Origin: a phage
DNA length: 64,000 bases
Strand: one strand, 5' to 3'
Sequence record: OZ346151.1
Shown one piece after another: positions 17,560 through 50,127 of this stretch. Each line of letters begins with the position of its first letter. The first letter of the stretch is position 1. A program made the position numbers and the translations under genes. Below the pieces are notes generated by a model that saw only the letters and a program-made list of their open reading frames with translations, did not search any database and was not told where the DNA came from.

Positions 17560-17567
17560 ATAAAGTG

Positions 17568-17595: not shown

Positions 17596-17649
17596 AAAAC
17601 TCAAGGGGGCAAGACGTTTGCCCCAACACAAAACAAAGAGGATAACATC

Positions 17650-18030
17650 ATGAAAAACACTACCAAGGCTATTGACACCGTTATGTTTAACCTGGTTACA
17701 TTCCGTGAAGATATGAAAGATCTTCCTCGTGAAACAGTGTGCGACCATATCGAAAACTATCGCAAACTAATCAAAGAGTTGCCTTTAAAACGTGATCAAT
17801 ATGCGGCTAACGCCATGCTTAATGCCATGATCAAAAAGATGATCCAGTGTGATTTAACCCTGGCCTATGATTATGCAGGCGGTCGTTTTGCAGTATACAA
17901 TCAGCCCGTGCCCGGTATGAGCACCACCGAAGAATTGCACGCGCTCAATCTAAAACAAGACGTGTGGGATAGTATGCCTCGCGTGGTGGTATGGGTAGAA
18001 AGCGGAAAGATTTACGGCGATAATTTTTAA
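17650..18030 (+). CDS. hypothetical protein
   Basis: SD AAGAGGA before ATG. Confidence 0.55.
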   Translation: MKNTTKAIDTVMFNLVTFREDMKDLPRETVCDHIENYRKLIKELPLKRDQYAANAMLNAMIKKMIQCDLTLAYDYAGGRFAVYNQPVPGMSTTEELHALNLKQDVWDSMPRVVVWVESGKIYGDNF

Positions 18031-34424: not shown

Positions 34425-34709
34425 CTACCAGGTTACTGTCAAGTAGGCAACCGTATTATTTTTCTCTGGGGAGATGCCAACAACATCTACCTGCAGACCT
34501 CCTGCCCTTAAATCTCCAACAATGTGCGGGAAGTAATCTGAGAGATGCGAGGGTAGATTTATCGAAAATCCGCACCCCAGAAAGCCTGCTAACGCTTTAT
34601 TTTGTATCTCCCCTACAATCGCATCATAAATGGAGTTAAGCTCGTCAGGGAGCGTTACAGGACGTTTTAGCGCTAACTGGTGTAATTTGTCCTTAGCACT
34701 CATTTTCAT
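34425..34709 (-). CDS. hypothetical protein
   Basis: Start set at internal Met near upstream stop. Confidence 0.45.
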   Translation of the reverse strand: MKMSAKDKLHQLALKRPVTLPDELNSIYDAIVGEIQNKALAGFLGCGFSINLPSHLSDYFPHIVGDLRAGGLQVDVVGISPEKNNTVAYLTVTW

Positions 34710-35239
34710 TTCAGGTCTACCTCTGGTGGTGCCAACCACATAAATGGCGGCAAGCCTAAACGGTTTTTCTTATCCCACACAAAATATGCATATGCTTGCC
34801 CGTCAGTTCTGCCATTTGATTGAAAAGATGGACGCTTAGATATTGTGATCACAGTGGTAGGTGCATTATCAAGCCACCATTCAAATCTGGCTTTGCTTTC
34901 CAGAAAATTAAGACGCAAAAGCATAATAACTACGTCAGCATCTTTCAACGCCTTGTCTACAAACTCACGAGCCAAACTGTATGGTGGGTTGGTGATAATA
35001 CAGTCAACATGGTTGTATTCTGTATTCAGATAGTCAACACCTTCTTGGATTTCTCCCCATGCAGATCCTAACGGCATACGGGAGTAGAACACACCTGAGG
35101 CACTATTCCTGCAAGGCTCTAAGTAGGTCCAGTCTTCTGGGAACGGAATAAGGTCATACAGCCCTTCTGCACACCACTCCGGTGTCACATACTCATCGTA
35201 GGCGTTACGTTGTTCATCAGGTTTTCGAGCACAAGTCAT
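34706..35239 (-). CDS. DNA methyltransferase (amino-methyltransferase, NPPY motif)
   Basis: Motif IV IITNPPYS; motif I-like LEPCRNSASGVFY; 177 aa. Confidence 0.65.
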   Translation of the reverse strand: MTCARKPDEQRNAYDEYVTPEWCAEGLYDLIPFPEDWTYLEPCRNSASGVFYSRMPLGSAWGEIQEGVDYLNTEYNHVDCIITNPPYSLAREFVDKALKDADVVIMLLRLNFLESKARFEWWLDNAPTTVITISKRPSFQSNGRTDGQAYAYFVWDKKNRLGLPPFMWLAPPEVDLK

Positions 35240-35249
35240 GCAAATCTCC

Positions 35250-35280
35250 AGATCATAAAAGCCCTCCGAAGAGGGCTTTA
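35250..35280 (-). terminator. rho-independent terminator (bidirectional hairpin)
   Basis: AAAGCCCTC-CGAA-GAGGGCTTT with flanking T/A runs. Confidence 0.6.
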
Positions 35281-35290
35281 GAATTAATGT

Positions 35291-36340
35291 TTAAGCTTCT
35301 TCGACAATTCCTGCACCCAGGATTTTTTCATTGAGCTCTTTTGCTGTTTTAATAATATTGTCCACCAGACGCTTGCGAGTCTTATCTTTTACCTTAACCT
35401 CTTCACCGCCGTTCAGGGTTGTCTTCAATTGGGACAGAATGTCTTGAAGTTCAACGACAGAGAATCGCTGCAGATCTTCTGAGGTAATCTCGCCTAAGGC
35501 AATCTTAACGGTCTCACCACTTTCCATCTGCAGGTTCAGGAACACAGTGTGAACATCACCTTTCGAACCACCCGCTTTTGCAGATTCAACAGCATGAACT
35601 AGCTCATCTAAAGAGGTGCACTGGTGAATCTCCGGAAGACCTGCTTCACCTAGCACACCTTCTTCATCACCTTTTGCCAAAAGCTTTTTAGGTTTTTGTC
35701 CGTTCTGGATGCGTTGTATGTTGCCTTCATCCAGAATGATAGCTCCAGTTCGAGCTGCCAGCTCCTCTCCGTCCAACCACACTTCGCCACCCGCTGTGAT
35801 GGATGCGATCTCATCTTCTGTCAGCACCCAACCGTAGTATTTTTCGATCAGGCGTTCGAAACGTTTTTTCCAGTAGCTGACCTGAGTATTCATGTTCACA
35901 CCATTGCCATAAGTGCCGCCTTGATAGTAGTGGAACATAAACTCTGTGTCCGGAGCCACAGTGCGTTCTTTGCAACCCAGCCATAGGATTGTTCCAGCAG
36001 AGCAGCACATCCCTTCAGCATGTGCAACAACGCTTGCCTGAGACTCGCGGAATGCCTGTAGATAAGCCATTGCAATGTGCACGCAACCCCCAGGGCTATT
36101 GATGATCACACGAATGCTTTCTTCCGGCTGAGCCATACGGATCGTCTGCAGACGAGACATATGATCCTGCAGGTCCTCCAAATCGTCGATATAAAGAACG
36201 TGGTCAACAACAGGTGTTGGGTAGCTGTATGTTTCCATAATACCACCCGGCATACCAAACATTTTATTACTCATAGGTTCGAAACCGTTCTGTTTTTCTT
36301 TCATGCCGTGTACCATGGTTCTGCGAGGTGTTAAATTCAT
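35291..36340 (-). CDS. ClpP-family serine peptidase with C-terminal extension
   Basis: INSPGG motif; Ser in GMCCSAG and His in MFHYYQGG at ClpP-equivalent positions. Confidence 0.65.
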   Translation of the reverse strand: MNLTPRRTMVHGMKEKQNGFEPMSNKMFGMPGGIMETYSYPTPVVDHVLYIDDLEDLQDHMSRLQTIRMAQPEESIRVIINSPGGCVHIAMAYLQAFRESQASVVAHAEGMCCSAGTILWLGCKERTVAPDTEFMFHYYQGGTYGNGVNMNTQVSYWKKRFERLIEKYYGWVLTEDEIASITAGGEVWLDGEELAARTGAIILDEGNIQRIQNGQKPKKLLAKGDEEGVLGEAGLPEIHQCTSLDELVHAVESAKAGGSKGDVHTVFLNLQMESGETVKIALGEITSEDLQRFSVVELQDILSQLKTTLNGGEEVKVKDKTRKRLVDNIIKTAKELNEKILGAGIVEEA

Positions 36341-36400
36341 GAGAAATCCTTAATATTGGAAGTTGAAAGCTATTTATTTAAACCTGATTCACATTTACCT

Positions 36401-36712
36401 TTATTTAGCAATCACTATGGAATACTTACGATTGTCAGAAGCATCACAACTCAATGATTGCCAGTCTACCACATACCACGTATCATTGTCAACAATTACT
36501 TTATCGCCTGTTCTGTAGCAAGTGCTGCTTTCAATAATTCGAGACTCGATAAAGAATCTGTGTCGGCGCTCACGTAGCAACGCTAAGTTAATTATATTAC
36601 CACCGCTGTCCTTGGTCCACACATTCTTGGATCCCTTATTTGCCAAAATTGTCTCGCCGTTATAGACAAACAGGCAGTATATTTTATTCAGTTTCTCTTG
36701 TATTGTAGCCAT
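36401..36712 (-). CDS. hypothetical protein
   Basis: Follows minus-strand promoter 36731-36759. Confidence 0.5.
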   Translation of the reverse strand: MATIQEKLNKIYCLFVYNGETILANKGSKNVWTKDSGGNIINLALLRERRHRFFIESRIIESSTCYRTGDKVIVDNDTWYVVDWQSLSCDASDNRKYSIVIAK

Positions 36713-36730
36713 ACTGTCCTTCTCTCTGTT

Positions 36731-36759
36731 TTGTCCGATAATAATATCTAAAGCTTACC
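36731..36759 (-). promoter_or_regulatory. sigma70 consensus promoter (minus strand)
   Basis: Minus-strand TTGACA, 17-bp spacer, TATTAT. Confidence 0.55.
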
Positions 36760-36787
36760 TATTTGTCAACAACTGTTTTAGATATTT

Positions 36788-36808
36788 AAGGGTGGAATAA
36801 CCACCCTT
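36788..36808 (-). terminator. stem-loop after phoH (no clear U-tract)
   Basis: AAGGGTGG-AATAA-CCACCCTT. Confidence 0.35.
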
Positions 36809-36813
36809 CTGTA

Positions 36814-37602
36814 TTACTCGGAAACAGGGGTCCAAATATGATTTGCACGATCCTCAATAAGATTGAGTGCGATCTGACGACCCAACCCAGAACGAACGAC
36901 ATCGTCTGGACTATCAAAGCTGATCATTCCAACCTCAGGATCTGGATGACGAGTAAAGAAATCCGTCACCCATGCAAGGCCAGATTTACCAGGGATGTCA
37001 CGTTGGCTATTATCACCCATAATTACAAGGGTGGCTTGATCAGAGATCCTTGTGATAATTGACAACATTTCTTCAGGGTTAGTTTGCTGTGCCTCGTCAA
37101 TCAGGACAAAGCATCGCTCATCGAAACTACGACCACGAATGCTTTCAACTTCACAAATCTCGATACGGCTGTTCTGACCGTCTCCCAGCATTGCGGCAAA
37201 AGCACCTTTGCCAACACGACGACAAATCGTGTCCATCATGCTTCGAAGATAGGGCCACAGTTTCTGCATTGCATTTCCAGGTTTAAATCCTGAAGTCTTT
37301 CCTGTCTGAACGTAAGGACGTGCAACAATAATCTTATCAATCTCGTTCTTACGCAGAAGATCACCTGCATATGCAGATGCCATGAATGTCTTACCGGATC
37401 CAAACACACCGTTTACAATAATAATCTTACGTGACCCTAGATAATCAAGATACTTTTGCTGCTTCTTATTCATTGGTCTGAGAGCTGGAGCGGTGTGCTC
37501 TCTTTCGTCAGCAAATTTCTCAGCAGCCTTACGCAGGCGATCAGATTTGCGAGCCTCTCTAGCTTCATCACGCATGCGTTTTGTTTCTTTAGCTCGACCC
37601 AT
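36814..37602 (-). CDS. phoH: PhoH-like ATPase
   Basis: Walker A GVFGSGKTF; length and layout typical of phage PhoH. Confidence 0.8.
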   Translation of the reverse strand: MGRAKETKRMRDEAREARKSDRLRKAAEKFADEREHTAPALRPMNKKQQKYLDYLGSRKIIIVNGVFGSGKTFMASAYAGDLLRKNEIDKIIVARPYVQTGKTSGFKPGNAMQKLWPYLRSMMDTICRRVGKGAFAAMLGDGQNSRIEICEVESIRGRSFDERCFVLIDEAQQTNPEEMLSIITRISDQATLVIMGDNSQRDIPGKSGLAWVTDFFTRHPDPEVGMISFDSPDDVVRSGLGRQIALNLIEDRANHIWTPVSE

Positions 37603-37640
37603 GTTGGGACTCCTTTCAGATTGAGATGTGCCAAGTACTT

Positions 37641-37991
37641 TTACTGCAACAGTTTTTCAATAGCCGCTTCCATGCTGCTTGCAACAGCCTGAACTCGGAT
37701 ATTCATCTCTTCTTGGTGGATCAGCTCCTTAAGCTCTTTAATGGTAAATTCTTTAGAGAAACCTTCCACCATAATCTTGTGCAAGGCTTCTTGCGTGTCT
37801 ACTTGCAAGAACTTTTCCAGTTTGTTGGCAGAGGCTTCTAAATCAGCCCGAATACGAGGGTCATCTGTGCGATTCAGCATTAGGCGTAAGCCATCAAGAT
37901 TAGTAGAAATAGCATCTGCATGTTGAGTAACTAACCGTGGCAAAATGAGATCTACAAACTTATTAGCCAAATCGATACGTTCTTGTGTCAC
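37641..37991 (-). CDS. hypothetical protein
   Basis: GTG start overlapping upstream stop. Confidence 0.45.
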   Translation of the reverse strand: MTQERIDLANKFVDLILPRLVTQHADAISTNLDGLRLMLNRTDDPRIRADLEASANKLEKFLQVDTQEALHKIMVEGFSKEFTIKELKELIHQEEMNIRVQAVASSMEAAIEKLLQ

Positions 37992-38101
37992 TGTTGCACC
38001 CCCTCTTCATCTTCATGATGTTTCTTTTCACGCTTGTGTTTTTTCTTAAGCTCAAGCGCAATCTCTTTCTTGTACGCCTTCTTCAAGGCTTTTTTAGCCA
38101 T
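37988..38101 (-). CDS. small lysine-rich peptide (37 aa)
   Basis: SD GAGGAGGTG before ATG; MAKKALKKAYKKEIALELKKKHKREKK...; follows promoter 38131-38160. Confidence 0.35.
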   Translation of the reverse strand: MAKKALKKAYKKEIALELKKKHKREKKHHEDEEGVQQ

Positions 38102-38130
38102 TTGGCACCTCCTCTGCTTTCATTACGGCA

Positions 38131-38160
38131 ATTATAACCAACTCAACAAAGCTTTGTCAA
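38131..38160 (-). promoter_or_regulatory. sigma70 consensus promoter (minus strand)
   Basis: Minus-strand TTGACA, 18-bp spacer, TATAAT. Confidence 0.55.
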
Positions 38161-38163
38161 CAA

Positions 38164-38637
38164 CTAGTCTACCTGAACCCAACCGCCTGATACTTTTTTA
38201 AACATTCTTTGGTTATCACTGCCTCGGAACGGTTTCTTGGTTGGTAAATCTTTTACATACTTACCGTCAATGATGATATCAGCCAGTTTAATAACATCAC
38301 TAGAGATATGGTCAAATGTGAACCCAGTATATACAAGAATAGTTTTCTTGTCACCAAATTTTTCCTTAATTTTCTCCATCAGGCTAATAATATCTGGCTC
38401 ATTATAGTATGCTAAGGGTTCTCCACCCAGTAGAGAGATACCGCACACAGACGGGTTATCTAAATCTGACAAGATTTTTTGCAAGTCTTCTTCAGTGAAC
38501 TTCCTCCCCTTATCTTTTGACCAAAATGCCTGATTAAAGCAACCAGGGCAAGCGTGTGGGCACCCAGATACCCACAAGGCAGTTCTAATACCTGGTCCTT
38601 CGGTGTAAGATATTTCTGTGTATCCAGCAATGTTCAT
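38164..38637 (-). CDS. nrdG: anaerobic ribonucleotide reductase activating protein (radical SAM)
   Basis: CxxxCxxC cluster GCPHACPGC; adjacent to nrdD. Confidence 0.8.
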   Translation of the reverse strand: MNIAGYTEISYTEGPGIRTALWVSGCPHACPGCFNQAFWSKDKGRKFTEEDLQKILSDLDNPSVCGISLLGGEPLAYYNEPDIISLMEKIKEKFGDKKTILVYTGFTFDHISSDVIKLADIIIDGKYVKDLPTKKPFRGSDNQRMFKKVSGGWVQVD

Positions 38638-38750
38638 AGATACTCCGCATCACATTTAGGGCAATGCCAAATAAAATCGTCTAGTGCCTTGCACCAACGA
38701 AGATTACAACTACAGCCGCACTTGCAAATTTTATAAATACCTGATGACAT
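38634..38750 (-). CDS. small Cys-rich peptide (38 aa) translationally coupled to nrdG
   Basis: SD AGGAGG before ATG; CKCGCSC...HCPKCD; stop overlaps nrdG start (ATGA). Confidence 0.4.
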   Translation of the reverse strand: MSSGIYKICKCGCSCNLRWCKALDDFIWHCPKCDAEYL

Positions 38751-38813
38751 ACTGCACCTCCTAGCTCACTGTGTGTCAATAATATGCCACATCCTTGTGG
38801 CTTTTGTCAAGAA

Positions 38814-40085
38814 TCAGCAACCACAACTTCCGTAGTGCTTAACTCGCTCGATAACTTCCGCTTGCTTACCTTTATTGTAAGGACGGGAGTTAGGACTGGA
38901 AAGGTATCCAGACACACGTCGAATTACACTGATCGTTCCCTCTTCATGGTTTCCACACTCTGGGCATACAAAGCCTTTAGCTGTTGCACTGAACTCACCA
39001 GAGAAACCACACTTGAGACATTTATCCACAGGTTGGTTAATACCAAAATACATAATGTGTTTATACCCGAAGTCAACAAGAGCCTCTAAAGCATCCAGGT
39101 TGTTTTTCAGGTTAGGTGTTTCTACGTATCCGATGTTGCCACCAGAGGATATCATAGCAAAACCTTCTTCATACTCCCACTTATCAAAAGGAGAGCTATT
39201 GATCCATACTGGCTGATGGAAACTGTTGGTGAGATATTCATGCTCGTGCTTCAACACTTCAGGATATTCACGATCCAGACAGGTTGCAGCTTTATAGCAT
39301 AGACTCTCAGAAGGGGTGCCGTACAAACTAAACGCTAGTCTACTTTTCTTCTTGTATCGCTCACAAGCATCTCTCATGTGCTGAAGTATTCCAAGAGCTA
39401 AAGCCTTGTCACCCTCTCTGCCCAAAATCTGACAGGTTTCATACACACCAATATACCCAATACTGATGGAAGCGTACCCGTCATAGAAGAGTTTATCAAT
39501 ACTCTCTTCAGGATCCAGGCGAGCAAGAGCGCCTTCACACCACATGATAGGGTTCTGCCCTGCCTTAGTGCCTTTCAGACGGTTAACCCTTACAAGGTGA
39601 GCTTCATATGCCAAATCCAGATACTCGTCAAGAACGGAAAAGAAATCAACACCTTCCGTCTTAGCTTTTGCCGCAATCATTGGCAGGTTAAGACTAACAA
39701 CACCCAAGTTGAATCTGCCGAGGTATTTCTCCTCACCTGTTTCCAAGTCATTGTATTTGCTAAGAAAACTCCGGCAACCCATGCTCGTTACTTTACCATC
39801 TGTCGAGCCTGTCACTTTACGATTTAGTGGAACAGAAACAAAGTCAGGATAAATCCGCTCTGCAGAGCATTCCAGAGCTAATCGTTTCAAATCATAGTTA
39901 GGATCTCCAGGGTTCATGTTGACACCCTCTTCTAGGAAGAACAACACTTTAGGGAACACAGGTGTGATACGTTCTTCACCAAGACCCATTTTGTGGACTT
40001 TCAAGTAGTTTTTGGTAATCATTCTACCAAAGACTGAGGTGTCCAGACCTAAACTTAATGTGATGAATGGAGTCTGCTGTCTCCT
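38814..40085 (-). CDS. nrdD: anaerobic ribonucleotide reductase NrdD, exon 2 (C-terminal part)
   Basis: Glycyl-radical motif RRVSGYL; zinc ribbon CLKCGF...CPECG; similarity to remembered E. coli NrdD (QTPF..LG.DTS) begins upstream of first ATG, implying splicing. Confidence 0.8.
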   Translation of the reverse strand, partial: RRQQTPFITLSLGLDTSVFGRMITKNYLKVHKMGLGEERITPVFPKVLFFLEEGVNMNPGDPNYDLKRLALECSAERIYPDFVSVPLNRKVTGSTDGKVTSMGCRSFLSKYNDLETGEEKYLGRFNLGVVSLNLPMIAAKAKTEGVDFFSVLDEYLDLAYEAHLVRVNRLKGTKAGQNPIMWCEGALARLDPEESIDKLFYDGYASISIGYIGVYETCQILGREGDKALALGILQHMRDACERYKKKSRLAFSLYGTPSESLCYKAATCLDREYPEVLKHEHEYLTNSFHQPVWINSSPFDKWEYEEGFAMISSGGNIGYVETPNLKNNLDALEALVDFGYKHIMYFGINQPVDKCLKCGFSGEFSATAKGFVCPECGNHEEGTISVIRRVSGYLSSPNSRPYNKGKQAEVIERVKHYGSCGC

Positions 40086-40882
40086 CCCTGTGTTTCCACA
40101 GGGCCAGACTATCTCTTACTCTACTTCAATAAGATAATAACCCTTTATTGTGAGATGCTTACCTTCGGCATTTCCTTCGATAGCCCTATGAACGTTACCT
40201 ACGTTCAAATTTAAGGCTTTTGCACAGGCATAGAGTGAAGGATATTCACCCACCAAGGTTTTACCTTTGTATGCCTGCACTTTCCTATAGCACTTACCTG
40301 GACAAAGTCCTGTTCGGAAAGCATGTCTCTTATTATCTTCCGGCAAAACCCACTCTAGGTTAGACGGATGATCATTCAATGTATTGCCATCTTTATGATT
40401 CACTTCCCAGTTTTCAGGGTCTTCTGGGACATCCGGCAAACAATACAAGGCAACAATCCTTGAGGTTTGGATTCGAATCTTTTTACCTTTGTGGTTGAAA
40501 GAGTACATATAACGGCGTTTAACATGCTTGTTACCTTTTCCATAACCTCCCCACAATATTGGGTGTAGCATTCCACGTTTTCCGTATACGTTTCCAACCT
40601 CATCAATCACATAGTTTGATTCTTCACCATTAAGAATGATCTTTTTCATAGAGCCTCTCCATTTCGAAGTTAGTATTTCAACTAACCCCTACACTACTTG
40701 GTTCAGAAATGTTTGTCAAGCATTTCTGCCTTTCGTTAGTCGTTACAACCGTTCCAACTCCTGTAAGAACTAGTCACGGGATTGGCATAGCTTTCGCCTT
40801 AGCGTTCCCCGTTAGCCGGATTTACCGACCCCTCTTATGAGGTTAGGAGAGTTTTACAACGGCCAGTTTGTTAACCGTTGAC
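40086..40882 (-). mobile_element. putative group I intron in nrdD with 3'-located HNH ORF
   Basis: nrdD reading frame broken between ...INTLTS and RRQQTPF...; HNH ORF in the gap ends ~30 nt before exon 2 (ORF-at-3'-end layout as recalled for the T4 nrdD intron); boundaries approximate. Confidence 0.6.
40116..40649 (-). CDS. HNH homing endonuclease (intron-encoded)
   Basis: HNH motif VNHKDGNTLNDHPSNLEWV; paralogous to 4088-4594. Confidence 0.8.
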   Translation of the reverse strand: MKKIILNGEESNYVIDEVGNVYGKRGMLHPILWGGYGKGNKHVKRRYMYSFNHKGKKIRIQTSRIVALYCLPDVPEDPENWEVNHKDGNTLNDHPSNLEWVLPEDNKRHAFRTGLCPGKCYRKVQAYKGKTLVGEYPSLYACAKALNLNVGNVHRAIEGNAEGKHLTIKGYYLIEVE

Positions 40883-41734
40883 AGAAGTTAACGTGTTGAT
40901 TTGATAGAGCAAAGTCTGCATGCTGTCAAATACGTCTTTATCTGTCATTTGCATTGCAACAGTTTCAGCATCCGGCAACCAATGTTCCTGGCAAAATTTA
41001 AGGTTCTTCTCATAGGTTGCTTCAGCATACTGTGCCAGATAATGATCAATATGGCTCATAGTCTGACCACCATATTGAGCACTAGCTACCGCACTAGAGA
41101 TTTGGCTAAGGATTGTTGTTGCAACCCCTATTGACTTCGGCTTACTGACATGGGCGTTACCAATGTTGAATCCGTTTTCCAACATATCTGGATAATTTAC
41201 CAAACAACAGTTTGTTAACGGACTGATCAAGTAGTCAAGATCATGCACATGGATGAATCCTTTATTGTGCTCTTCGGAGACACGGTCTGGCAGGATCTGT
41301 GTTGATGCAAGGTGTTTGCTAAGAATACCTGCAAGCAGGTCGCGATGAGTGTGTACATGATTAGTAGGCTTATTTGCGTTTTCTTTTGTAAATTCATCAC
41401 AAGTTCGATCCAAGAAGCCACTAATATCTGCAAGCAGTTTTCCACCTGCCTCTCTGTTATTATCTCTTGTCTGTCTATACTGGATGTATTCTCTGGCTGC
41501 ACATTTTAAACCCATATCCATAAGAGCATCTTCAACAAGGATATGGATATTTTTTACAGAGATCGTGCACTGGTCGGTTGGTAGATTGTTAGCAACAACT
41601 TCATTAACCGCGCAGGCGATCCGGTAAGCTTCTTCTTCAGTATGTCCAGACTCAAGTAAGGCGGACTCTGCCGCCTTGATCACCTTAATTCCGTTATAGA
41701 ACTCTTCTCTACCGTCCCGTTTTACAACTTTCAC
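40883..41734 (-). CDS. nrdD: anaerobic ribonucleotide reductase NrdD, exon 1 (ATP-cone and N-terminal part)
   Basis: ATP-cone-like N-terminus VVKRDGREEF; ORF stops shortly after ...INTLTS. Confidence 0.75.
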
Positions 41735-42009
41735 TTTTTCTCTCCAAAACCATTCTTAACAAAAGAGATGAAATCGTCGGCACCGCCTATATGGACACTG
41801 TCAAGATCGCTTTCTAAGAAGATCTGCGGCAACGTTCTGGGGACAATTGGACTGCACTTCTCAATAAGCTCTTCTTTTGTGTAGCCCTCGCCAAGTGTCT
41901 TATATACAAAAGGCAGACCTTTGCTGATTGCAAATTCTTTTGCTCTGACACAATGTGGGCAGTTATCATTACCGTAAATGATGATGAAAAAAGATTTTTC
42001 GCAGCTCAT
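41731..42009 (-). CDS. glutaredoxin/thioredoxin-like protein (RNR reductant)
   Basis: CPHC active site; between nrdB and nrdD. Confidence 0.75.
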   Translation of the reverse strand: MSCEKSFFIIIYGNDNCPHCVRAKEFAISKGLPFVYKTLGEGYTKEELIEKCSPIVPRTLPQIFLESDLDSVHIGGADDFISFVKNGFGEKK

Positions 42010-42012
42010 ATA

Positions 42013-43101
42013 TTAAAACTCCCAAATTTCTTCTTCAGCGTCGTTAACAGTTGTGTTGACGCGGTAGTCAGTGTTCGACATTTCTTGGTTCGCCGTCTGT
42101 TGTAATGAAGGTTTCATCCACACCTGCATAAACGGTAGCGGGTCCTTTGTTGGCGGCACAAAGTCTTTGTCGATGTCGTAGTAATCATAAATCGGTGAGC
42201 AGTTATAGTCAACCCACTCTTTAAGCAACGGTGAGTTAAGACCTATAATCGCTCTTCCTTCGCTGAAAATATAGTCACTCCAACCGTACTCTTTGGTTCG
42301 TACTTCATCAAGAATCTCTTTTAACTCCCCCTTTATCTCAAGGAAGCTTTTCTCCCATGCGGGATCATTAAGCAAGATATCAATGATGGCAAAATCACCT
42401 TTCGAATGTAGCATTTCGTCAAGCATGATTTTTTGAACAAGCTGCGCCACCTGAACAAAGATACCCTGTTCAGCTACTGCGAAAGTGCATGCAAAACTTG
42501 CAATAAACTCAATACTTTCCAGAGCTAAAAGTGCAAAAAGCGCTCTAAGAATGCATTTCCGCACAACATCTTCTTCAACACTAGAAGGATCCAGTCGGTA
42601 TTTTGCACCAATAACCTCAAGCTCTTGCATGTATTTGACAATAACGCCAGATCTGCTCAGAACGTTTTGGTTTTCCTGAATCTCTTCTATAATCTCACGG
42701 GCATTGGGGAGGCATTGTCTAACAATCTCTGAGTAAGTTAGTGCGTGAAGAACTTCAATCTCTGACTGTTTCATCAATAGAGTGAAAAGCTCACTATTAG
42801 TGATGAATGGTGAAAAGAGGCAGATGATCGATCTTGCCGCAACGCTATCAGCCTCCCATTGCCACATCAAGGTCTGCACCATCACGTCATAAGTTGACTT
42901 TGAGCATGTTACAAAATCTGAAATAGATTGCGACAAATCCACTTCATCCTCTGCCCAATCTTGCTCTTTTTGTTTTTTGTATAGTTCAAACAGTTGTGGA
43001 TATTTTTTGTTGATAGAGTCGTACATACCCATTTGCTGTCCCAGAAACAGCGGATAGTCACCAGTTTTATGAGCGGTGTTCTCAGCATTAAATACAGCCA
43101 T
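42013..43101 (-). CDS. nrdB: ribonucleotide reductase class I small subunit
   Basis: Size and position downstream of nrdA; start set at MAVFNAENT (SD-like AGGTAG). Confidence 0.75.
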   Translation of the reverse strand: MAVFNAENTAHKTGDYPLFLGQQMGMYDSINKKYPQLFELYKKQKEQDWAEDEVDLSQSISDFVTCSKSTYDVMVQTLMWQWEADSVAARSIICLFSPFITNSELFTLLMKQSEIEVLHALTYSEIVRQCLPNAREIIEEIQENQNVLSRSGVIVKYMQELEVIGAKYRLDPSSVEEDVVRKCILRALFALLALESIEFIASFACTFAVAEQGIFVQVAQLVQKIMLDEMLHSKGDFAIIDILLNDPAWEKSFLEIKGELKEILDEVRTKEYGWSDYIFSEGRAIIGLNSPLLKEWVDYNCSPIYDYYDIDKDFVPPTKDPLPFMQVWMKPSLQQTANQEMSNTDYRVNTTVNDAEEEIWEF

Positions 43102-43118
43102 TATTCTACCTCTAAAAT

Positions 43119-43132
43119 GGGGCCGAAGCCCC
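43119..43132 (-). promoter_or_regulatory. intercistronic stem-loop between nrdA and nrdB
   Basis: GGGGC-TTCG-GCCCC followed by ATTTTA on minus strand. Confidence 0.4.
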
Positions 43133-43139
43133 TTTAAAA

Positions 43140-45455: not shown

Positions 45456-45682
45456 TTTGCTTCCTCCACTTCATCAACGTATTTATCAAGGCAGGTATCA
45501 GTATCTTGCTGGATAAAGGTATCCTCTTCTACAGAGATATTTATAATTTTGCCTGTATACTCGTCATAATAAACATCATCATACATTTTAATATCGTTTG
45601 TCAGGCCGTTGAACCAAAGCCAACCAACATACTCTGACCGACTTGCAAAACCAAGATCCTTCCACTTGGAGTTATGACTCAT
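45452..45682 (-). CDS. hypothetical protein
   Basis: Start set at internal Met with SD AGGTGG. Confidence 0.45.
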   Translation of the reverse strand: MSHNSKWKDLGFASRSEYVGWLWFNGLTNDIKMYDDVYYDEYTGKIINISVEEDTFIQQDTDTCLDKYVDEVEEAN

Positions 45683-45692
45683 CTTCACCACC

Positions 45693-46193
45693 TTAGCTTT
45701 CAATACCGAATAATTTTTCCAGGCGATGCAGATCTTCAAAATTGAAAGGTTCATCAACAATATGAATATCTTCAGCCTTTTCAGATTGTTTTGTATACTT
45801 TCTTACATTAACACGATCCTCTACAGGAATATCATACGGAAGATCTTGAACAAGCATTGCCTCACCAGGTGCTTTATCCACATCTAAAATATCTACACCG
45901 TTATACATTTGCGGGTATCTAAAGTCTGCACGCATGACACCAGCAAATACATCTGCCTTTCGATAATGTGTTGGCTTATTTTTGCATCGAACGTTTTTTC
46001 CACGAAGAACATCAATACTTTTTAAATCAAACCCTACGGCAAAGAGTGCAGCTCGGAGACCGTTTCGTGTGCGAACGTTAAACCCGGGAACGGTAGATAG
46101 GAAATCCAAAGTAACTGAAATAAATGTCTTTTTAGGAATCATAACATTACTCATATCTGTCTCCATTTCTGGCTCACCAACAAAGTGAGCCAT
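45693..46193 (-). CDS. hypothetical protein (start uncertain)
   Basis: Promoter -10 lies 1 nt from first ATG, so real start may be an internal Met. Confidence 0.45.
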   Translation of the reverse strand: MAHFVGEPEMETDMSNVMIPKKTFISVTLDFLSTVPGFNVRTRNGLRAALFAVGFDLKSIDVLRGKNVRCKNKPTHYRKADVFAGVMRADFRYPQMYNGVDILDVDKAPGEAMLVQDLPYDIPVEDRVNVRKYTKQSEKAEDIHIVDEPFNFEDLHRLEKLFGIES

Positions 46194-46194
46194 T

Positions 46195-46223
46195 ATTATA
46201 GATTATCTAATACTATTAGTCAA
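46195..46223 (-). promoter_or_regulatory. sigma70-like promoter (minus strand)
   Basis: Minus-strand TTGACT, 17-bp spacer, TATAAT. Confidence 0.5.
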
Positions 46224-46252
46224 CACAAAAGTTACCTATCGCTGTGATAGGA

Positions 46253-47236
46253 TTAACCTTTCACGAAGTGGTTATTAAGCAGTTGTCTGTGCTGAACCCA
46301 CCCACAAAAGTTGGCAGACCAGAATTTACCATCACGGTCTTGATGGGTTACACCTTCCTGCCAAGTACTGATGTCTTGTGTGATTTCACATGAAGACAGG
46401 TAGTAGTTTAAACGTTCCATTGCGTTATCGTGATCCATAGGTGTTGCCTGGTGCTCGTAAGGGCTTGCATGAATACGATCCCCACCAATCAATTTTTTAG
46501 CCACACTGTCTGCCTTTTCAAACGTGCTGTCAATATTTCGATAAGATACTTGTGCACAGCAACTAGCACTGATAGACAGAGCTTCTTTAGTATCGAGAAT
46601 GCAGAGCTTTCCTTCTGTGTCACGTACAGCGTAGTTAAACTCCCCGTCCAAATAAACGTGCTCTACATATGGAGTGTGCCATTGACCCGGTTTAAGGATT
46701 TCAGGAGTGCTATTCACAAGAGCCTCCCACATACAATTAGCTAACATCTGAATCGTAGGATCCGCATCGTGCCAGCAACGGAGGTGGAAAAAATTATTCC
46801 ACTCGGTGCTTGTTACAACTGTTTTCATGCGCTGAAAAGGCTCCACTAAGCGGTTACATACTTGCTTATGGTAACCAGCAAGGGCAAACTTCTCTGCATG
46901 CCAAGCGGCGTTTTTTGCAGCTTCTTTCCAAAACTCTTCCGGAGTTAGCTCCATATCAGTGTACTCTACACGGATCTTTTGATCGTGTTCCCCACCATCT
47001 TCCATTCCTCGCTTATTTACACCGAAGCGAACTGGCATTGCCGGATTCTCCACAATCTGTTGCAGCATCTTTCCGACAGGCACTGCACGGGAAGACATGG
47101 CGTTTCGGCTGAACACTCGGTGCGTCATAAGCTCTGAGTGAATAATTCGAGGATACTCTAGCTCAAAAGTGGTGATGCGCTTACCTTTCTCGGAAATGCT
47201 GTCAGCAATGATCTTTGCAGTGCACAGTTTTAGCAT
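46253..47236 (-). CDS. thyX: flavin-dependent thymidylate synthase
   Basis: ThyX-like motif THRVFSRNAMSSRA (RHR...S...SxR pattern). Confidence 0.7.
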   Translation of the reverse strand: MLKLCTAKIIADSISEKGKRITTFELEYPRIIHSELMTHRVFSRNAMSSRAVPVGKMLQQIVENPAMPVRFGVNKRGMEDGGEHDQKIRVEYTDMELTPEEFWKEAAKNAAWHAEKFALAGYHKQVCNRLVEPFQRMKTVVTSTEWNNFFHLRCWHDADPTIQMLANCMWEALVNSTPEILKPGQWHTPYVEHVYLDGEFNYAVRDTEGKLCILDTKEALSISASCCAQVSYRNIDSTFEKADSVAKKLIGGDRIHASPYEHQATPMDHDNAMERLNYYLSSCEITQDISTWQEGVTHQDRDGKFWSANFCGWVQHRQLLNNHFVKG

Positions 47237-47436
47237 TATTTAGCTCTCCTTGTTTTAATTTTGGAAATTTCGTCTGGGTTTATGTTGGCCTTAAATGCAA
47301 GGTATCTGTTGAACATATCGGAGCACATGTCTTGGGTGATCCTGGAGGCATACACCAGCTTACCTCCCAGATCATACACCTCTAGCCAGTCACCGTATCT
47401 GACTACAGGATCGCCACCTTTAGAACATCTGCCCAT
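47236..47436 (-). CDS. hypothetical protein
   Basis: Strand-consistent ORF. Confidence 0.45.
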   Translation of the reverse strand: MGRCSKGGDPVVRYGDWLEVYDLGGKLVYASRITQDMCSDMFNRYLAFKANINPDEISKIKTRRAK

Positions 47437-47437
47437 T

Positions 47438-48031
47438 TCAAATACCTTCTAAAAACTTTCCTATTTTATACCAGCTATTAGCGGTATAGTCAACACTGAC
47501 CTTTAACTCCTCAAATTGCTCATAAGGCGTATCTTTTAGGATTTTAATAACTTCAGGGCGTGAAGCGAATTGGTTCAGGTATTCATGCCTGTCGTCAATT
47601 ATAACATCTACAGCCACATTTCCCTTGAAATGCGTGGCGTAGAAGCCGTGACCCTGGGTGTGATCGTCCAGATCCATAAAATCACTAGTCCAACGCTTTA
47701 AGAACCTTGATTTAGATGCAAGGTGACCTTTCTTGCATACCGAGATAAATGCAAGCTTGTGACCACGAGCCACCAAATCTTTCATAACCTCAATAGCCCC
47801 CTCTTCAGGCTTAAGAAAGTCGTAGAGGAACGGGTCACTCCAGAAATCAAAAGGCCCTATGATGTTTTCTTTGGGGCGATCAGGCCAATACTTTGACAGA
47901 TCGTAATACATTAACCCATTAGAAGGTTTAGTGACTGTCTTACTGGCTGGACCATATAAACGCTCCAACCACTCCCACCATGCTGTTCCTGAATCTACCA
48001 GTGTCAAATCTACATCAATACCGATTAACAT
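47438..48031 (-). CDS. HAD-superfamily hydrolase (putative nucleotidase)
   Basis: Motif I GIDVDLTLVDS (DxDxT); motif IIDD; sits in nucleotide-metabolism cluster. Confidence 0.6.
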   Translation of the reverse strand: MLIGIDVDLTLVDSGTAWWEWLERLYGPASKTVTKPSNGLMYYDLSKYWPDRPKENIIGPFDFWSDPFLYDFLKPEEGAIEVMKDLVARGHKLAFISVCKKGHLASKSRFLKRWTSDFMDLDDHTQGHGFYATHFKGNVAVDVIIDDRHEYLNQFASRPEVIKILKDTPYEQFEELKVSVDYTANSWYKIGKFLEGI

Positions 48032-48642
48032 TCTTCTTGGGCCTCTTTAGCATCAATATACTTGCACACAATCTCCGATGCACATTCCCAAGGTGCACCT
48101 TCAGGGTTTACAACATCGAACTCAATTCCTTTTATTCCGTTCTTTTCCAGACTTAGATAGGTTCTGGAATCATTTCCCCAGTCATATCCGACACGGTGAA
48201 TACGGAACAACAACAGATCTCCACCTGTGCTGTACGCGTACTCGCTAAGGCATGCCAGCTCCTCTTTGAATCCACCATCGGAGTAAACAACAACCCCTTT
48301 ACCTTTAGGGAAATCTTTCTTCAAAGATGCGACTGCGGCTTTACCGAAAGCATCTTCACCAAAGATAGGTTTAATCAGATTTTCACTACAATGGATCATC
48401 CATTCTCGCGGAGAAACATGCTTGCCGTCTATCATTAAGAAAGGGCAAGGCTCTTCTTTGTAGTGGCGGTCATAAAGTGCATTCCAGAGTTGAGGAGTTA
48501 CACCAGCTGCCTTAATTGCCACACTGAAGAGCATCTCCTTAACCTCACGGTGGTGTGAGTTAGGAATAGCTTCCAACAAGAGATCTGCAATGTGATCCTT
48601 ACCACTGCTGGGTGGGGCGTTAAGAACAATAATATCCATCAA
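48025..48642 (-). CDS. deoxynucleoside monophosphate kinase (T4 gp1-like)
   Basis: P-loop LNAPPSSGKDHIADLL resembles T4 gp1 SGKDT..ADF as remembered. Confidence 0.6.
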   Translation of the reverse strand: MMDIIVLNAPPSSGKDHIADLLLEAIPNSHHREVKEMLFSVAIKAAGVTPQLWNALYDRHYKEEPCPFLMIDGKHVSPREWMIHCSENLIKPIFGEDAFGKAAVASLKKDFPKGKGVVVYSDGGFKEELACLSEYAYSTGGDLLLFRIHRVGYDWGNDSRTYLSLEKNGIKGIEFDVVNPEGAPWECASEIVCKYIDAKEAQEEC

Positions 48643-48842
48643 AAACCTCCGTGGTATTCTTCAACTGCATCAATAATACTTTTACACTTATCTACCAGCT
48701 CGTTAGCCACTACAGCATCGTCTTCCCAAACAGCTTCCTCGATCTGATCAAGCAATGATCGCATCTTACCCATCATTTCTGGGATAAAGTCTTCTGAAAA
48801 GCTGTCTGGAATTGTTAACTTTAGTGTCATTGCGTTCTCCAA
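48639..48842 (-). CDS. hypothetical protein
   Basis: Strand-consistent ORF. Confidence 0.45.
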   Translation of the reverse strand: MENAMTLKLTIPDSFSEDFIPEMMGKMRSLLDQIEEAVWEDDAVVANELVDKCKSIIDAVEEYHGGF

Positions 48843-48857
48843 TCATACTATGCGTTA

Positions 48858-49316
48858 TTAGAAGTTTGTTTTTACACGTCCCTTTTCATCAACCTCGTTG
48901 TTGGCTAGAAGCGTTACAAAGTCTGTGAAACGGACATGAAGAACTCTTTTCTTATCAAGGTATCCTAAAGCCACCCCTGAGAAATTTAGCATCAAAGGGG
49001 CTAAAGAAGCTCTGGCACTGAAATGCTGTTGTTCTACCCTTCCAACACCCTTAGTGTAGGATGGGTTAAGATTGTAAGTTCTGAATCCCAGTTTTGTTGG
49101 AGCTTTAGAATTAAAAACAACTTTATAGCGTTTCTTACTCAACTTATGCTCCAGGATAAGCATTCCCTTATCACCCTTGATAAGTTGAAAATCTGTAAAG
49201 TGCTCTTTTAATACGAAAGGTAGTGCCAGTCCCATCGCCTGCCCCCTTTGTACCGCTGTCTCACCAAAAGCTTTTGCATCAGTAAGTTCTTTGGTCAAGT
49301 CTATGCTTTTGATCAT
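48858..49316 (-). CDS. hypothetical protein
   Basis: Strand-consistent ORF. Confidence 0.5.
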   Translation of the reverse strand: MIKSIDLTKELTDAKAFGETAVQRGQAMGLALPFVLKEHFTDFQLIKGDKGMLILEHKLSKKRYKVVFNSKAPTKLGFRTYNLNPSYTKGVGRVEQQHFSARASLAPLMLNFSGVALGYLDKKRVLHVRFTDFVTLLANNEVDEKGRVKTNF

Positions 49317-50127
49317 ACCTAGTCTCCAAAATGTATTGTAGTTCTTTCTTACCTATACTCTTCATTCCGGCAGTCTTACCTGCTTCTTCTTGAAAAGAAG
49401 AATAGCATTCAGCAAACACTCTGTCAACACCGTCAACTAAAGATTTTATGAAATATGTTGATTCTTCAGATTTTGGGTCATCCTCCCCCAATACTTTTCC
49501 AGCATTATACCCAACACGTCTTACACAGAAGTCGTAGTCATCTGGAGTGCTAAAAGAAAATAACTTATTCTCCCCAATCTCTACAGGATCCCTGTTGCAC
49601 GCCTTTTTCTCCCAAATTTGGAAAACACACGGCACGTCATAAGGTTTGCCATTAAGTAGAAACGAGTTCTTAGGGCACCTTTCACTGTAGACAAGGTGCA
49701 TCGACATGTCCAGTTTGTTTGCAAAAAATATTTTTTCAAATGTCCGTGGCAAGATGAAGGCTATAGCCCCTCCAAGCTCTAGCAATGATGCACAATGGTT
49801 AAAGAATTTGCAAGCTAAAGATGAATTCTTGCCAAATGGTGGGTTACCTATGAAGACATCTGCCTTGGGATGCACCTCCAAGAAGTTTGCCTGAATGCAC
49901 GGTGTTGGTCCTTCAAATTCAGGATCTGGTACTAGATCGTAAGACAGTATCTCTGAAAATAGTTTTGAAAAAGAACCCCTTCCAGCAGAAGGCTCAACGT
50001 ATGCACAATTTCCATACTTATCTTTTACTTTACCAACAAGATATTCTGCATACTCAGGGTTTGTGTAATATTTGTCGTTGGACTCTTTCTTGCTCAAAGT
50101 GCCTCCAAAAGGAAAAGGGAGGCGCAA
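49279..50127 (-). CDS. DNA N6-adenine methyltransferase-like protein
   Basis: Motif I VEPSAGRGSF; motif IV FIGNPPFG. Confidence 0.65.
   Translation of the reverse strand: MRLPFPFGGTLSKKESNDKYYTNPEYAEYLVGKVKDKYGNCAYVEPSAGRGSFSKLFSEILSYDLVPDPEFEGPTPCIQANFLEVHPKADVFIGNPPFGKNSSLACKFFNHCASLLELGGAIAFILPRTFEKIFFANKLDMSMHLVYSERCPKNSFLLNGKPYDVPCVFQIWEKKACNRDPVEIGENKLFSFSTPDDYDFCVRRVGYNAGKVLGEDDPKSEESTYFIKSLVDGVDRVFAECYSSFQEEAGKTAGMKSIGKKELQYILETRYDQKHRLDQRTY

What the first reader, a model, noticed from the sequence alone, without database searches (positions are those of the whole stretch)
34706..50127. Two orphan DNA methyltransferases without an adjacent restriction endonuclease
34706-35239 (IITNPPYS) and 49279-50127 (VEPSAGRGSF ... 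FIGNPPFG) both carry amino-methyltransferase motifs, and no restriction-enzyme-like gene is adjacent. Phage orphan methyltransferases usually protect the genome from host restriction. Two different ones suggest protection against more than one restriction specificity, or a regulatory methylation role.
Basis: partly seen in the sequence, partly recalled or inferred. Interest (0 to 1): 0.45.

Follow-up and report, generated by a model that had tools for sequence, protein, structure and literature searches.

The report
Phage Dam methylase plus GTAC methylase-nuclease pair
Both genes are real adenine DNA methyltransferases of an rV5-like E. coli phage: one is already proven in a near-identical phage to methylate GATC and set off retron defences, and the other is not orphan, because it is always paired with a small restriction-enzyme-shaped protein and probably makes the phage's unexplained GTAC methylation.

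Summary
The window is a Vequintavirus (rV5-like) coliphage, 99.5% identical to phage nomo. Both ORFs exist as described and are already annotated in GenBank as putative N6-adenine methyltransferases.

MTase 1 (34706-35239, 177 aa) is 175/177 identical to the Bas51 enzyme. Nakamura et al. 2025 showed that enzyme methylates GATC, is toxic in E. coli, and triggers retrons Asa1 and Squ1. This part is already known.

MTase 2 (49279-50097, 272 aa) is a gamma-class enzyme with invariant SAM-binding and NPPF motifs. The same paper's data show a second motif, GTAC, methylated independently of MTase 1. My site counts show it is saturated: 509-511 of 516 adenines. By elimination, MTase 2 is the best candidate.

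The genome also carries two further methyltransferases just outside the window.

The parts
34706..35239 (-). MTase 1: minimal (177 aa) N6-adenine DNA methyltransferase, GATC-specific by orthology. Motif X YVTPEW, degenerate motif I LEPCRNSASGVF, motif IV NPPY (84-87).
   Evidence: phrog_799 E 5.5e-67. 175/177 identical to Bas51 bas51_0176. The published loss-of-function mutations D69G, D79G and T83P map exactly onto D69, D79 and T83 of this protein and not onto MTase 2. The T83P mutant loses GATC m6A, 1405 -> 35.
34425..34709 (-). 94-aa ORF of unknown function, translationally coupled to MTase 1 by an ATGA stop/start overlap.
   Evidence: phrog_12158 E 1.6e-64, unknown function. No Pfam hit. 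Junction sequence read. Annotated as hypothetical in nomo, EmilHeitz and Bas51. Its fold was not tested.
49279..50097 (-). MTase 2: gamma-class N6-adenine DNA methyltransferase (272 aa; the longest ORF extends to 50127). Best candidate for the GTm6AC methylation of the phage genome.
   Evidence: PADLOC MTase_II E 1.5e-33, full length. Family alignment A4 has invariant DxxYT, EPSAGxGxF, D54 and GNPPFG. 270/272 identical to bas51_0200. GTAC m6A in Bas51 is independent of MTase 1 and saturated.
48858..49316 (-). Partner of MTase 2: 152-aa protein with a PD-(D/E)xK restriction-endonuclease-like fold, overlapping the MTase 2 3' end by 38 nt and carrying its own Shine-Dalgarno sequence. Catalytic competence is uncertain (N82 where the family has D).

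Best explanation
The window carries two functionally distinct adenine-methylation modules of an rV5-like lytic coliphage. Both sit in the replication and nucleotide-metabolism gene block, so they are probably expressed while phage DNA is being made (inferred from position).

(1) MTase 1 is a minimal Dam-like enzyme. It methylates every GATC in the phage genome, faster than host Dam can. This is shown in a 99%-identical ortholog, not in this phage. It is a solitary methylase, and its activity on retron msDNA makes it a trigger of retron abortive infection.

(2) MTase 2 is a gamma-class enzyme that most likely writes GTm6AC on every GTAC site (inferred). It is not solitary. It forms a compact, translationally linked pair with a small PD-(D/E)xK restriction-endonuclease-fold protein. 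That makes the pair a Type II restriction-modification-like module, resembling RsaI-type (GTAC) systems in the shape of the nuclease but using an m6A rather than an m4C methylase.

In this E. coli Vequintavirus clade the nuclease-fold partner has Asn at a position that is Asp in the rest of the family. It may therefore be an attenuated or non-cutting DNA-binding remnant. The module's present-day role would then be either self-protection of GTAC sites plus attack on unmethylated host or competitor DNA (if the nuclease is active), or protection alone (if it is not).
For: Identity of the phage: 99.5% to phage nomo, 114 records covering at least 80% of the query.

MTase 1:
- 175/177 identical to bas51_0176.
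- PMC12548924 reports D69G, D79G and T83P as loss-of-function mutations, GATC as the motif, toxicity in E. coli, and triggering of retrons Asa1 and Squ1.
- Methylated GATC adenines fall from 1405 to 35 in the T83P mutant. Bas51 has 703 GATC sites, which is 1406 adenines.

MTase 2:
- All catalytic and SAM-binding motifs are invariant across 24 homologs.
- Full-length match to a REBASE-derived Type II MTase model.
- GTAC m6A is unchanged in the MTase 1 mutant (509 vs 511) and saturates the 258 sites, which is 516 adenines. From my own knowledge, E. coli K-12 has no GTAC methylase.
- The only other adenine-type MTase in Bas51 (bas51_0070) is a Type III Mod-like beta-class enzyme (EcoP15I Mod E 2e-24, a further Mod E 1.4e-28). 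From general knowledge, that class normally methylates one strand of an asymmetric site.
- A characterised GTAC m6A enzyme, M.HpyAXII, is also gamma-class, with its catalytic Asn at residue 87; MTase 2 has it at residue 85 (PMC2588503).

Partner:
- Confident model.
- Best named viral structural match is an R.RsaI-like protein, and that protein is itself paired with an SPPY methylase.
- Partner and MTase 2 homolog are adjacent in 10/10 loci, with the gene order reversed between clades.
- GTAC is depleted in the phage (O/E 0.59-0.62) but not in a host sample (0.90).
Against: - No experiment assigns GTAC to MTase 2. bas51_0070 remains a possible GTAC enzyme, and some beta-class PF01555 enzymes do methylate palindromes.
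- MTase 2 has no detectable sequence similarity to any enzyme of proven specificity. The profile search of the PDB gave only weak hits: Ta1320/METTL5 5e-4 to 7e-3, M.TaqI 0.11. Some databases call its relatives 'RNA methylase'.
- The canonical (D/E)xK glutamate is T or R in this family. The Lys is Arg in phAPEC8. D82 is Asn in this clade. Nuclease activity is therefore doubtful.
- All methylation data come from Bas51, not from the phage in the window.
Confidence: 0.72

Rival explanations
1. One reading: both enzymes are solitary (orphan) methyltransferases whose job is to shield the phage genome from host restriction enzymes of two specificities. The neighbouring small ORFs are unrelated.
For: MTase 1 has no recognisable nuclease next to it. 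Both motifs are fully methylated in virion DNA, which would block enzymes of the MboI/DpnII type and the RsaI/Csp6I/PabI type. RsaI is blocked by GTm6AC (PMC2588503). GTAC depletion in the phage fits past pressure from GTAC-cutting host enzymes.
Against: The ORF overlapping MTase 2 has a restriction-endonuclease fold and is never found without an MTase 2 homolog (10/10 loci). It is therefore not an unrelated neighbour. Vequintavirinae show no general RM resistance (PMC8594841).
Confidence: 0.2
2. The Type III Mod-like enzyme encoded just upstream of the window (bas51_0070 ortholog) makes the GTAC methylation. MTase 2 then has another substrate: a rarer DNA motif hidden in the 'other' class of methylated sites, or RNA.
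For: bas51_0070 has an N6-adenine-type DPPF motif and a strong PF01555 match. 349 methylated adenines outside GATC and GTAC remain in the T83P mutant. The catalytic domain of MTase 2 weakly resembles METTL5-type rRNA methylases, and relatives are sometimes labelled RNA methylase.
Against: Type III Mod-like enzymes typically hemimethylate asymmetric 5-6 bp sites (general knowledge). About 275 such sites would be expected in 140 kb, close to the 349 unexplained 'other' sites (my arithmetic). MTase 2 matches REBASE-derived Type II DNA MTase models over its full length and is coupled to a DNA-nuclease-fold protein, which makes an RNA substrate unlikely.
Confidence: 0.18
3. The 152-aa partner is a free-standing PD-(D/E)xK homing endonuclease (I-Ssp6803I-like) or a Holliday-junction resolvase that merely rides next to the methylase gene. 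It is not a restriction partner.
Against: Homing endonuclease genes are sporadic, whereas this gene is fixed beside MTase 2 homologs. That holds from Vequintavirus to Vibrio phages, at 20-30% protein identity and in both gene orders. The phage already encodes an EndoVII-type resolvase nearby.
Confidence: 0.1

Closest known systems
Bas51 (Escherichia phage WalterGehring) N6-adenine methyltransferase bas51_0176, a GATC methylase and trigger of retrons Asa1 and Squ1 (Nakamura et al., PLoS Biol 2025, PMC12548924)
   Same: 99% identical protein (175/177), same genomic position next to the ClpP-like protease, and the same residues D69, D79 and T83.
   Different: Two substitutions near the C-terminus (G162D, V174A in Bas51). 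No experiment has been done on this particular phage.
Solitary phage Dam methylases (T4/T2 Dam, P1 Dam, T1 Dam; Pfam PF05869 and NCBIfam TIGR01712 'phage N-6-adenine-methyltransferase')
   Same: Small phage-encoded GATC m6A enzyme without a restriction partner. Weak similarity around motif IV (PF05869 E 0.001; TIGR01712 E 0.006).
   Different: Scores are far below the family cut-offs (19 vs 28 bits; 16 vs 97 bits). It belongs to a different sequence family (phrog_799) with a gamma-like motif order X-I-IV.
M.HpyAXII / R.HpyAXII and M.PabI / R.PabI, GTAC-specific Type II R-M systems with an m6A methylase (PMC2588503, PMC10273834)
   Same: Gamma-class adenine methylase of about 270-330 aa with motif IV near residue 85-87, a GTm6AC product (inferred for MTase 2), a small adjacent restriction gene, and strong GTAC avoidance in the genome that carries the system.
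   Different: There the restriction partner is a 'half-pipe' DNA glycosylase; here it is a PD-(D/E)xK fold. Known GTAC methylases are under 18% identical to one another.
RsaI-type R-M pair (R.RsaI GT^AC with M.RsaI m4C), as annotated in Synechococcus phage Syn19 (Syn19_153/154)
   Same: A small nuclease (171 vs 152 aa) overlapping a roughly 270-aa methylase gene in a lytic phage. Structural similarity of the nucleases (TMq 0.64, prob 1.00). A shared 'APSxxxGxGR' block at the same distance from the conserved Lys (by inspection).
   Different: No significant sequence similarity. The methylase is a beta-class SPPY N4-cytosine type in Syn19 and a gamma-class NPPF adenine type here. The Syn19 nuclease has a canonical ExK (VEGK), whereas the partner family has (T/R)YK.
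Chlorovirus R-M systems such as R.CviQI/M.CviQI (G^TAC / GTm6AC), used by a lytic virus against host DNA (from my own knowledge; M.CviQI is mentioned in PMC2588503)
   Same: A lytic virus that fully methylates GTAC adenines and carries a candidate cognate nuclease.

Membership tests
N6-adenine DNA methyltransferase, gamma class (M.TaqI-like): MTase 2 | Motif order X - I - II - IV, with the catalytic domain N-terminal and the target-recognition region C-terminal. | tested here: met
   DxxYT (motif X), EPSAGxGxF (I), D54 (II) and GNPPFG (IV) occur in that order within residues 8-89, followed by about 180 further residues.
N6-adenine DNA methyltransferase, gamma class (M.TaqI-like): MTase 2 | Conserved SAM-binding glycine loop and (D/N)PP(Y/F) catalytic motif. 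| tested here: met
   E35, P36, S37, A38, G39, G41, F43 and G84, N85, P86, P87, F88, G89 are invariant in 24 sequences at 38-83% identity.
N6-adenine DNA methyltransferase, gamma class (M.TaqI-like): MTase 2 | Significant similarity to curated DNA MTase models. | tested here: inconclusive
   PADLOC Type II MTase models hit at 1.5e-33 to 4e-18. Pfam hits (Eco57I, MTS) are below the gathering cut-off, NCBIfam gives none, and the PDB profile search gives M.TaqI only at E 0.11.
GTAC-specific m6A methyltransferase: MTase 2 | Methylates the adenine of GTAC. | not testable with these tools
   Indirect only. GTAC m6A is saturated in Bas51 and independent of MTase 1. Assignment to MTase 2 is by elimination against the Mod-like bas51_0070.
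Dam-type GATC m6A methyltransferase (solitary, phage): MTase 1 | Methylates GATC adenines. | not tested
   Shown experimentally for the 99%-identical Bas51 ortholog (PMC12548924), not for this phage.
Dam-type GATC m6A methyltransferase (solitary, phage): MTase 1 | Membership of the curated phage Dam families (Pfam PF05869, NCBIfam TIGR01712). | tested here: not met
   PF05869 scores 19.2 bits against a cut-off of 28.1. TIGR01712 scores 16.1 bits against a cut-off of 97. It works like a Dam but belongs to another family (phrog_799).
Dam-type GATC m6A methyltransferase (solitary, phage): MTase 1 | NPPY catalytic motif and a SAM-binding motif I. | tested here: inconclusive
   NPPY is present at 84-87. 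Motif I reads LEPCRNSASGVF, an expanded loop that lacks the first glycine of GxG. The enzyme is nevertheless active in Bas51.
Type II restriction-modification system: MTase 2 plus partner | Methylase and nuclease genes adjacent and co-inherited. | tested here: met
   Overlapping genes in the window. The pair is intact in 10/10 loci, with both gene orders represented.
Type II restriction-modification system: MTase 2 plus partner | The partner has a nuclease fold used by restriction enzymes. | tested here: met
Type II restriction-modification system: MTase 2 plus partner | Intact catalytic residues (acidic pair plus Lys). | tested here: inconclusive
   Acidic residue at position 38 in 29/30 and K65 in 28/30. 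However, the ExK glutamate position is T/R, and D82 (25/30) is Asn in the window, Bas51, nomo, EmilHeitz and P0121.
Type II restriction-modification system: MTase 2 plus partner | Cleavage of unmethylated sites that is blocked by the cognate methylation. | not testable with these tools
   Requires biochemistry.
RsaI restriction endonuclease family: partner | Sequence homology to R.RsaI-like proteins. | tested here: not met
   BLASTP finds no hit and hhalign gives E 0.29. Only fold similarity (TMq 0.64) and a short shared motif support a link.

The most novel reading that the evidence does not exclude
rV5-like phages and their relatives (Phapecoctavirus, some Vibrio phages, many uncultured phages) carry a previously unrecognised compact Type II restriction-modification system. 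It would consist of a gamma-class GTm6AC methylase plus a 130-150-aa RsaI-shaped PD-(D/E)xK nuclease. The phage would use it offensively, to cut unmethylated host or competitor-phage DNA while its own fully methylated genome is spared, as chloroviruses do. In the E. coli Vequintavirus clade the D82N change would mark a recent attenuation or change of function.
Probability: 0.25. Interest if true: 0.7.

Novelty: new member of a known kind. Interest (0 to 1): 0.42.

Why it matters
As stated, the finding (a phage with two methyltransferases) is ordinary, and one half of it is already published. Three points go beyond that.

1. A public methylome of a near-identical phage contains a fully saturated second motif, GTAC, that the authors did not assign to a gene. 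This analysis names the most likely enzyme and a simple test for it.

2. That enzyme belongs to a family listed as 'unknown function' in PHROGs. It is invariably coupled to a small protein with a restriction-endonuclease fold, which databases call hypothetical or mislabel as a methyltransferase. Lytic coliphages carrying their own R-M-like module would matter for understanding host DNA shut-off, competition between phages, and why these phages avoid GTAC.

3. rV5-like phages are common phage-therapy and biocontrol candidates. It is practically useful to know that they carry a GATC methylase that triggers retron defences, and possibly a nuclease as well.

Tried and rejected
- Single-sequence PDB searches for MTase 1, MTase 2, the partner and the Poseidonibacter neighbour gave nothing useful.
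- The first AlphaFold run of the partner, on a 5-sequence alignment, failed (pLDDT 39.8). It succeeded only after a profile search had deepened the alignment.
- An apparent partner-MTase fusion protein (P0020, 395 aa) looked like Rosetta-stone evidence. It was rejected because the DNA has an in-frame stop, so these are two adjacent genes merged by a gene caller.
- The genes downstream of the bacterial or metagenomic MTase 2 homologs (L011 199 aa, L013 171 aa, L014 349 aa) are not detectable partner-family members: HMM search found no hit, hhalign gave E 0.18, and a pairwise E of 0.002 was not reproduced. They have no Pfam or PDB matches. I could not show that they are restriction enzymes.
- The Syn19 methylase next to R.RsaI is unrelated to MTase 2.
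- The MTase 2-like gene in cyanophage ACG-2014f has no small partner.
- The exhaustive HMMER search with the partner found only 5 proteins, and the viral-contig scans returned few loci.
- The afdb50 structure library was unavailable.
- No paper mentions both RsaI and rV5.
- I considered host Dam as the source of GATC methylation and rejected it, because the T83P phage loses it on a dam+ host.

Full report
WHAT THE WINDOW IS. The 17-kb stretch around the finding is 99.5% identical to Escherichia phage nomo, and 114 phage records cover at least 80% of it; nearly all of these are Vequintavirus (rV5-like) myoviruses of E. coli. The region is the minus-strand replication and nucleotide-metabolism block. 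It holds a ClpP-like protease, PhoH, NrdG, an intron-split NrdD, glutaredoxin, NrdA/B, ThyX, a DnaQ-like exonuclease and EndoVII.

CHECKING THE OBSERVATION. Both ORFs exist on the minus strand with the quoted motifs. MTase 1 (34706-35239, 177 aa) matches phrog_799 'DNA methyltransferase' at E 5.5e-67. MTase 2 (49279-50127) matches phrog_5172 ('unknown function') at E 2.5e-129 and PADLOC Type II methyltransferase models down to E 1.5e-33 over their full length. Pfam and NCBIfam hits for both are below the curated cut-offs, so neither belongs to a well-curated family. GenBank records already call both 'putative N6 adenine methyltransferase'. The GenBank start for MTase 2 (50097, 272 aa) fits the N-termini of the family better than the upstream TTG. 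The two proteins are only remotely related to each other, around motif IV.

MTASE 1 IS ALREADY CHARACTERISED IN A NEAR-IDENTICAL PHAGE. A literature search led to Nakamura et al. 2025 (PMC12548924).
- In BASEL phage Bas51, escape from retrons Asa1 and Squ1 maps to 'the N6 adenine methyltransferase', with the mutations D69G, D79G and T83P.
- Nanopore sequencing shows GATC m6A in the wild type and near-complete loss in T83P.
- The enzyme is toxic in E. coli, and it triggers Retron-Squ1 in its native Serratia host.

I identified Bas51 as phage WalterGehring, MZ501111, and fetched its genome. Its bas51_0176 protein is 175/177 identical to the window's MTase 1. D69, D79 and T83 (the T of ITNPPY) sit at exactly those positions, whereas MTase 2 has Q, A and I there. 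So the published enzyme is the ortholog of MTase 1. This half of the finding is already known.

A SECOND, UNASSIGNED METHYLATION MOTIF. The paper's S4 Table (Fig 4f) lists methylated adenines:

| Phage | GATC | GTAC | other |
|---|---|---|---|
| wild type | 1405 | 509 | 576 |
| T83P | 35 | 511 | 349 |

The text does not discuss GTAC. I counted sites in the assembled 140,659-bp Bas51 genome. There are 703 GATC sites, which is 1406 adenines, and 258 GTAC sites, which is 516 adenines. Both motifs are therefore essentially saturated, and GTAC methylation does not depend on MTase 1. E. coli K-12 has no GTAC methylase (my own knowledge), so a phage enzyme must be responsible.

WHICH ENZYME WRITES GTAC. 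Bas51 has four annotated DNA methyltransferases:
- bas51_0070, 441 aa;
- bas51_0074, a Dcm-like C5 enzyme;
- bas51_0176, which is MTase 1;
- bas51_0200, which is MTase 2 (270/272 identical).

The window begins at Bas51 position 68410, just downstream of the first two. They are invisible in the window but almost certainly present in this phage.

bas51_0070 is a PF01555 enzyme with a DPPF motif. Its nearest solved relatives are Type III Mod subunits: EcoP15I Mod at E 2e-24 and another Mod at E 1.4e-28. From general knowledge, that class normally methylates one strand of an asymmetric 5-6-bp site. A 5-bp asymmetric site would occur about 275 times in 140 kb, close to the 349 residual 'other' sites (my arithmetic).

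MTase 2 is a gamma-class enzyme. Its motifs X (DxxYT), I (EPSAGxGxF), II (D54) and IV (GNPPFG) are invariant in 24 homologs at 38-83% identity. That is the same class and layout as the characterised GTAC m6A enzyme M.HpyAXII, whose catalytic residue is N87 where MTase 2 has N85 (PMC2588503). I therefore assign GTAC to MTase 2 by elimination and by class, with roughly 75-80% confidence. It has not been shown directly. Known GTAC methylases are under 18% identical to each other, so sequence comparison cannot settle the question.

MTASE 2 IS NOT ORPHAN. A 152-aa ORF (48858-49316, phrog_9938 'unknown function') overlaps the MTase 2 stop by 38 nt. It has a GGAG ribosome-binding site 7 nt before its ATG. 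In nomo it is mislabelled 'putative DNA N6-adenine methyltransferase', yet it has no methylase motifs.
- Sequence searches found only a narrow family.
- A profile search gave about 20 diverse members, and an alignment of 21 sequences gave a confident AlphaFold2 model with pLDDT 83.5 and pTM 0.78. The first attempt, on 5 sequences, had failed.
- Foldseek against the PDB was weak.
- Foldseek against predicted viral structures, after two family members and a third unnamed viral protein (A0A516LY52), returned 'R.RsaI endonuclease [Synechococcus phage Syn19]' at probability 1.00 and TMq 0.64.

RsaI cuts GTAC and is blocked by GTm6AC. In Syn19 that gene overlaps a 270-aa PF01555 methylase with an SPPY motif. 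This fits a genuine RsaI-type pair, because M.RsaI is an m4C GTAC enzyme (PMC6256690).

The resemblance between the window's partner and the Syn19 nuclease is structural only. BLASTP finds nothing. hhalign aligns a shared 'PSxxxGxGR' block, but at E 0.29.

THE PAIR IS CONSERVED. A partner-family gene lies directly beside or overlapping an MTase 2-family gene in every locus where I found one:
- the window;
- a Vequintavirus UViG;
- three Logan metagenomic contigs;
- three further IMG/VR contigs;
- phAPEC8 (Phapecoctavirus);
- Vibrio phage IBT_VpB-34.

That is 10 of 10 loci. The order is nuclease then methylase everywhere except Vequintavirus, where it is reversed. MTase 2 homologs in bacterial or other contigs (for example Poseidonibacter ostreae) occur without the partner and have other unannotated neighbours. 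A nuclease-fold gene that never occurs without the methylase, while the methylase can occur alone, is the pattern expected of a restriction-modification pair.

GTAC is also the second most depleted 4-bp palindrome in the phage (O/E 0.59 in Bas51, 0.62 in the window). A 50-kb E. coli K-12 sample shows no such depletion (0.90). Genomes that carry GTAC systems are known to avoid the site.

IS THE NUCLEASE ACTIVE? This remains uncertain. Across 30 family members:
- conserved columns are an acidic residue at position 38 on helix 1 (29/30), Y64, K65 (28 Lys, 2 Arg), D82 (25/30), and the invariant T88, K89, G90 and R93;
- the glutamate position of a canonical ExK motif is T or R;
- all five exceptions at position 82 are Asn, and all belong to the E. 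coli Vequintavirus clade: the window, Bas51, nomo, EmilHeitz and the P0121 cluster.

Asp-to-Asn is a classic inactivating change for a metal ligand (general knowledge). I could not inspect the model coordinates to confirm that D82 lies in the active site. The partner may therefore be an active but non-canonical enzyme, or a DNA-binding remnant in this clade.

FUNCTION. Shown in Bas51: MTase 1 methylates GATC on phage DNA and acts as a retron trigger. Inferred: MTase 2 methylates GTAC, and with its partner it forms a Type II R-M-like module.

Protection against GATC- and GTAC-cutting host enzymes is plausible but untested. The BASEL study found Vequintavirinae 'exceptionally susceptible' to the RM systems it tried. 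As far as I recall, those systems recognise other sites.

An offensive role against unmethylated host or rival DNA, as in chloroviruses, is the most novel reading that the evidence does not exclude.

VERDICT. MTase 1 is already known. MTase 2 and its partner are a new member of a known kind, a compact R-M-like pair that has not been characterised. Interest is moderate.

Noticed in passing
window 32954-33478 (-): This 174-aa gene, annotated 'putative glycosidase' in BASEL records, lies four genes downstream of MTase 1. [quoted passage not shown] How it does so is unknown.
   Followed up: partly
just upstream of window position 1 (Bas51 64456-65781 and 67042-67806; L009:14456-15781 and 17042-17806): Two more DNA methyltransferases lie just outside the window: a 441-aa Type III Mod-like DPPF enzyme and a 254-aa 'Dcm-like C5' enzyme (phrog_757, no Pfam hit). 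The phage therefore has four methylases. The 349 residual non-GATC/GTAC m6A sites in Bas51 may belong to the Mod-like enzyme.
   Followed up: partly
whole window and Bas51 genome: GTAC is depleted in the phage (O/E 0.59-0.62), nearly as strongly as CTAG (0.53-0.57). GATC is not depleted (0.99-1.04). A 50-kb E. coli K-12 sample has GTAC at O/E 0.90.
   Followed up: partly
window 38814-41734 (-), with 40116-40649 (-): The anaerobic ribonucleotide reductase gene nrdD is split into two ORFs by an insertion carrying an HNH homing endonuclease. BASEL records annotate it as a joined CDS, that is, an intron.
   Followed up: no
window 34425-34709 (-): A 94-aa ORF (phrog_12158, unknown function) is translationally coupled to MTase 1 by an ATGA overlap.
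   Followed up: partly
GenBank records MG065635-MG065690 ('Campylobacter phage' C14, A135, D#, A12a and others): About 20 unannotated records labelled as Campylobacter jejuni phages carry MTase 1 and MTase 2 at 98-99% identity to E. coli rV5-like phages. The host labels look doubtful and may reflect mislabelling or contamination.
   Followed up: no
nomo_145 in MN850578 (L001:16360-16818), equivalent to window 48858-49316: Several GenBank records label the nuclease-fold partner 'putative DNA N6-adenine methyltransferase'. It has no methylase motifs, so the name seems to have spread from its neighbour.
   Followed up: yes
L015:30-1217 (Logan contig ERR4682342_137557), protein P0020: A 395-aa 'fusion' of partner and MTase 2 in the protein database is an artefact, or else reflects a recoded stop: the DNA has an in-frame stop codon between the two genes. 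A further partial MTase 2-like ORF follows in tandem.
   Followed up: partly
L011:4805-5404 (Poseidonibacter ostreae) and cyanophages S-SSM5, P-RSM4, S-TIM4, S-SM1, S-WAM2, ACG-2014f: The unannotated 199-aa gene that follows the bacterial MTase 2 homolog after a 10-nt gap has relatives of about 175 aa (29-33% identity) in T4-like cyanophages. It may be another uncharacterised restriction-type partner.
   Followed up: partly
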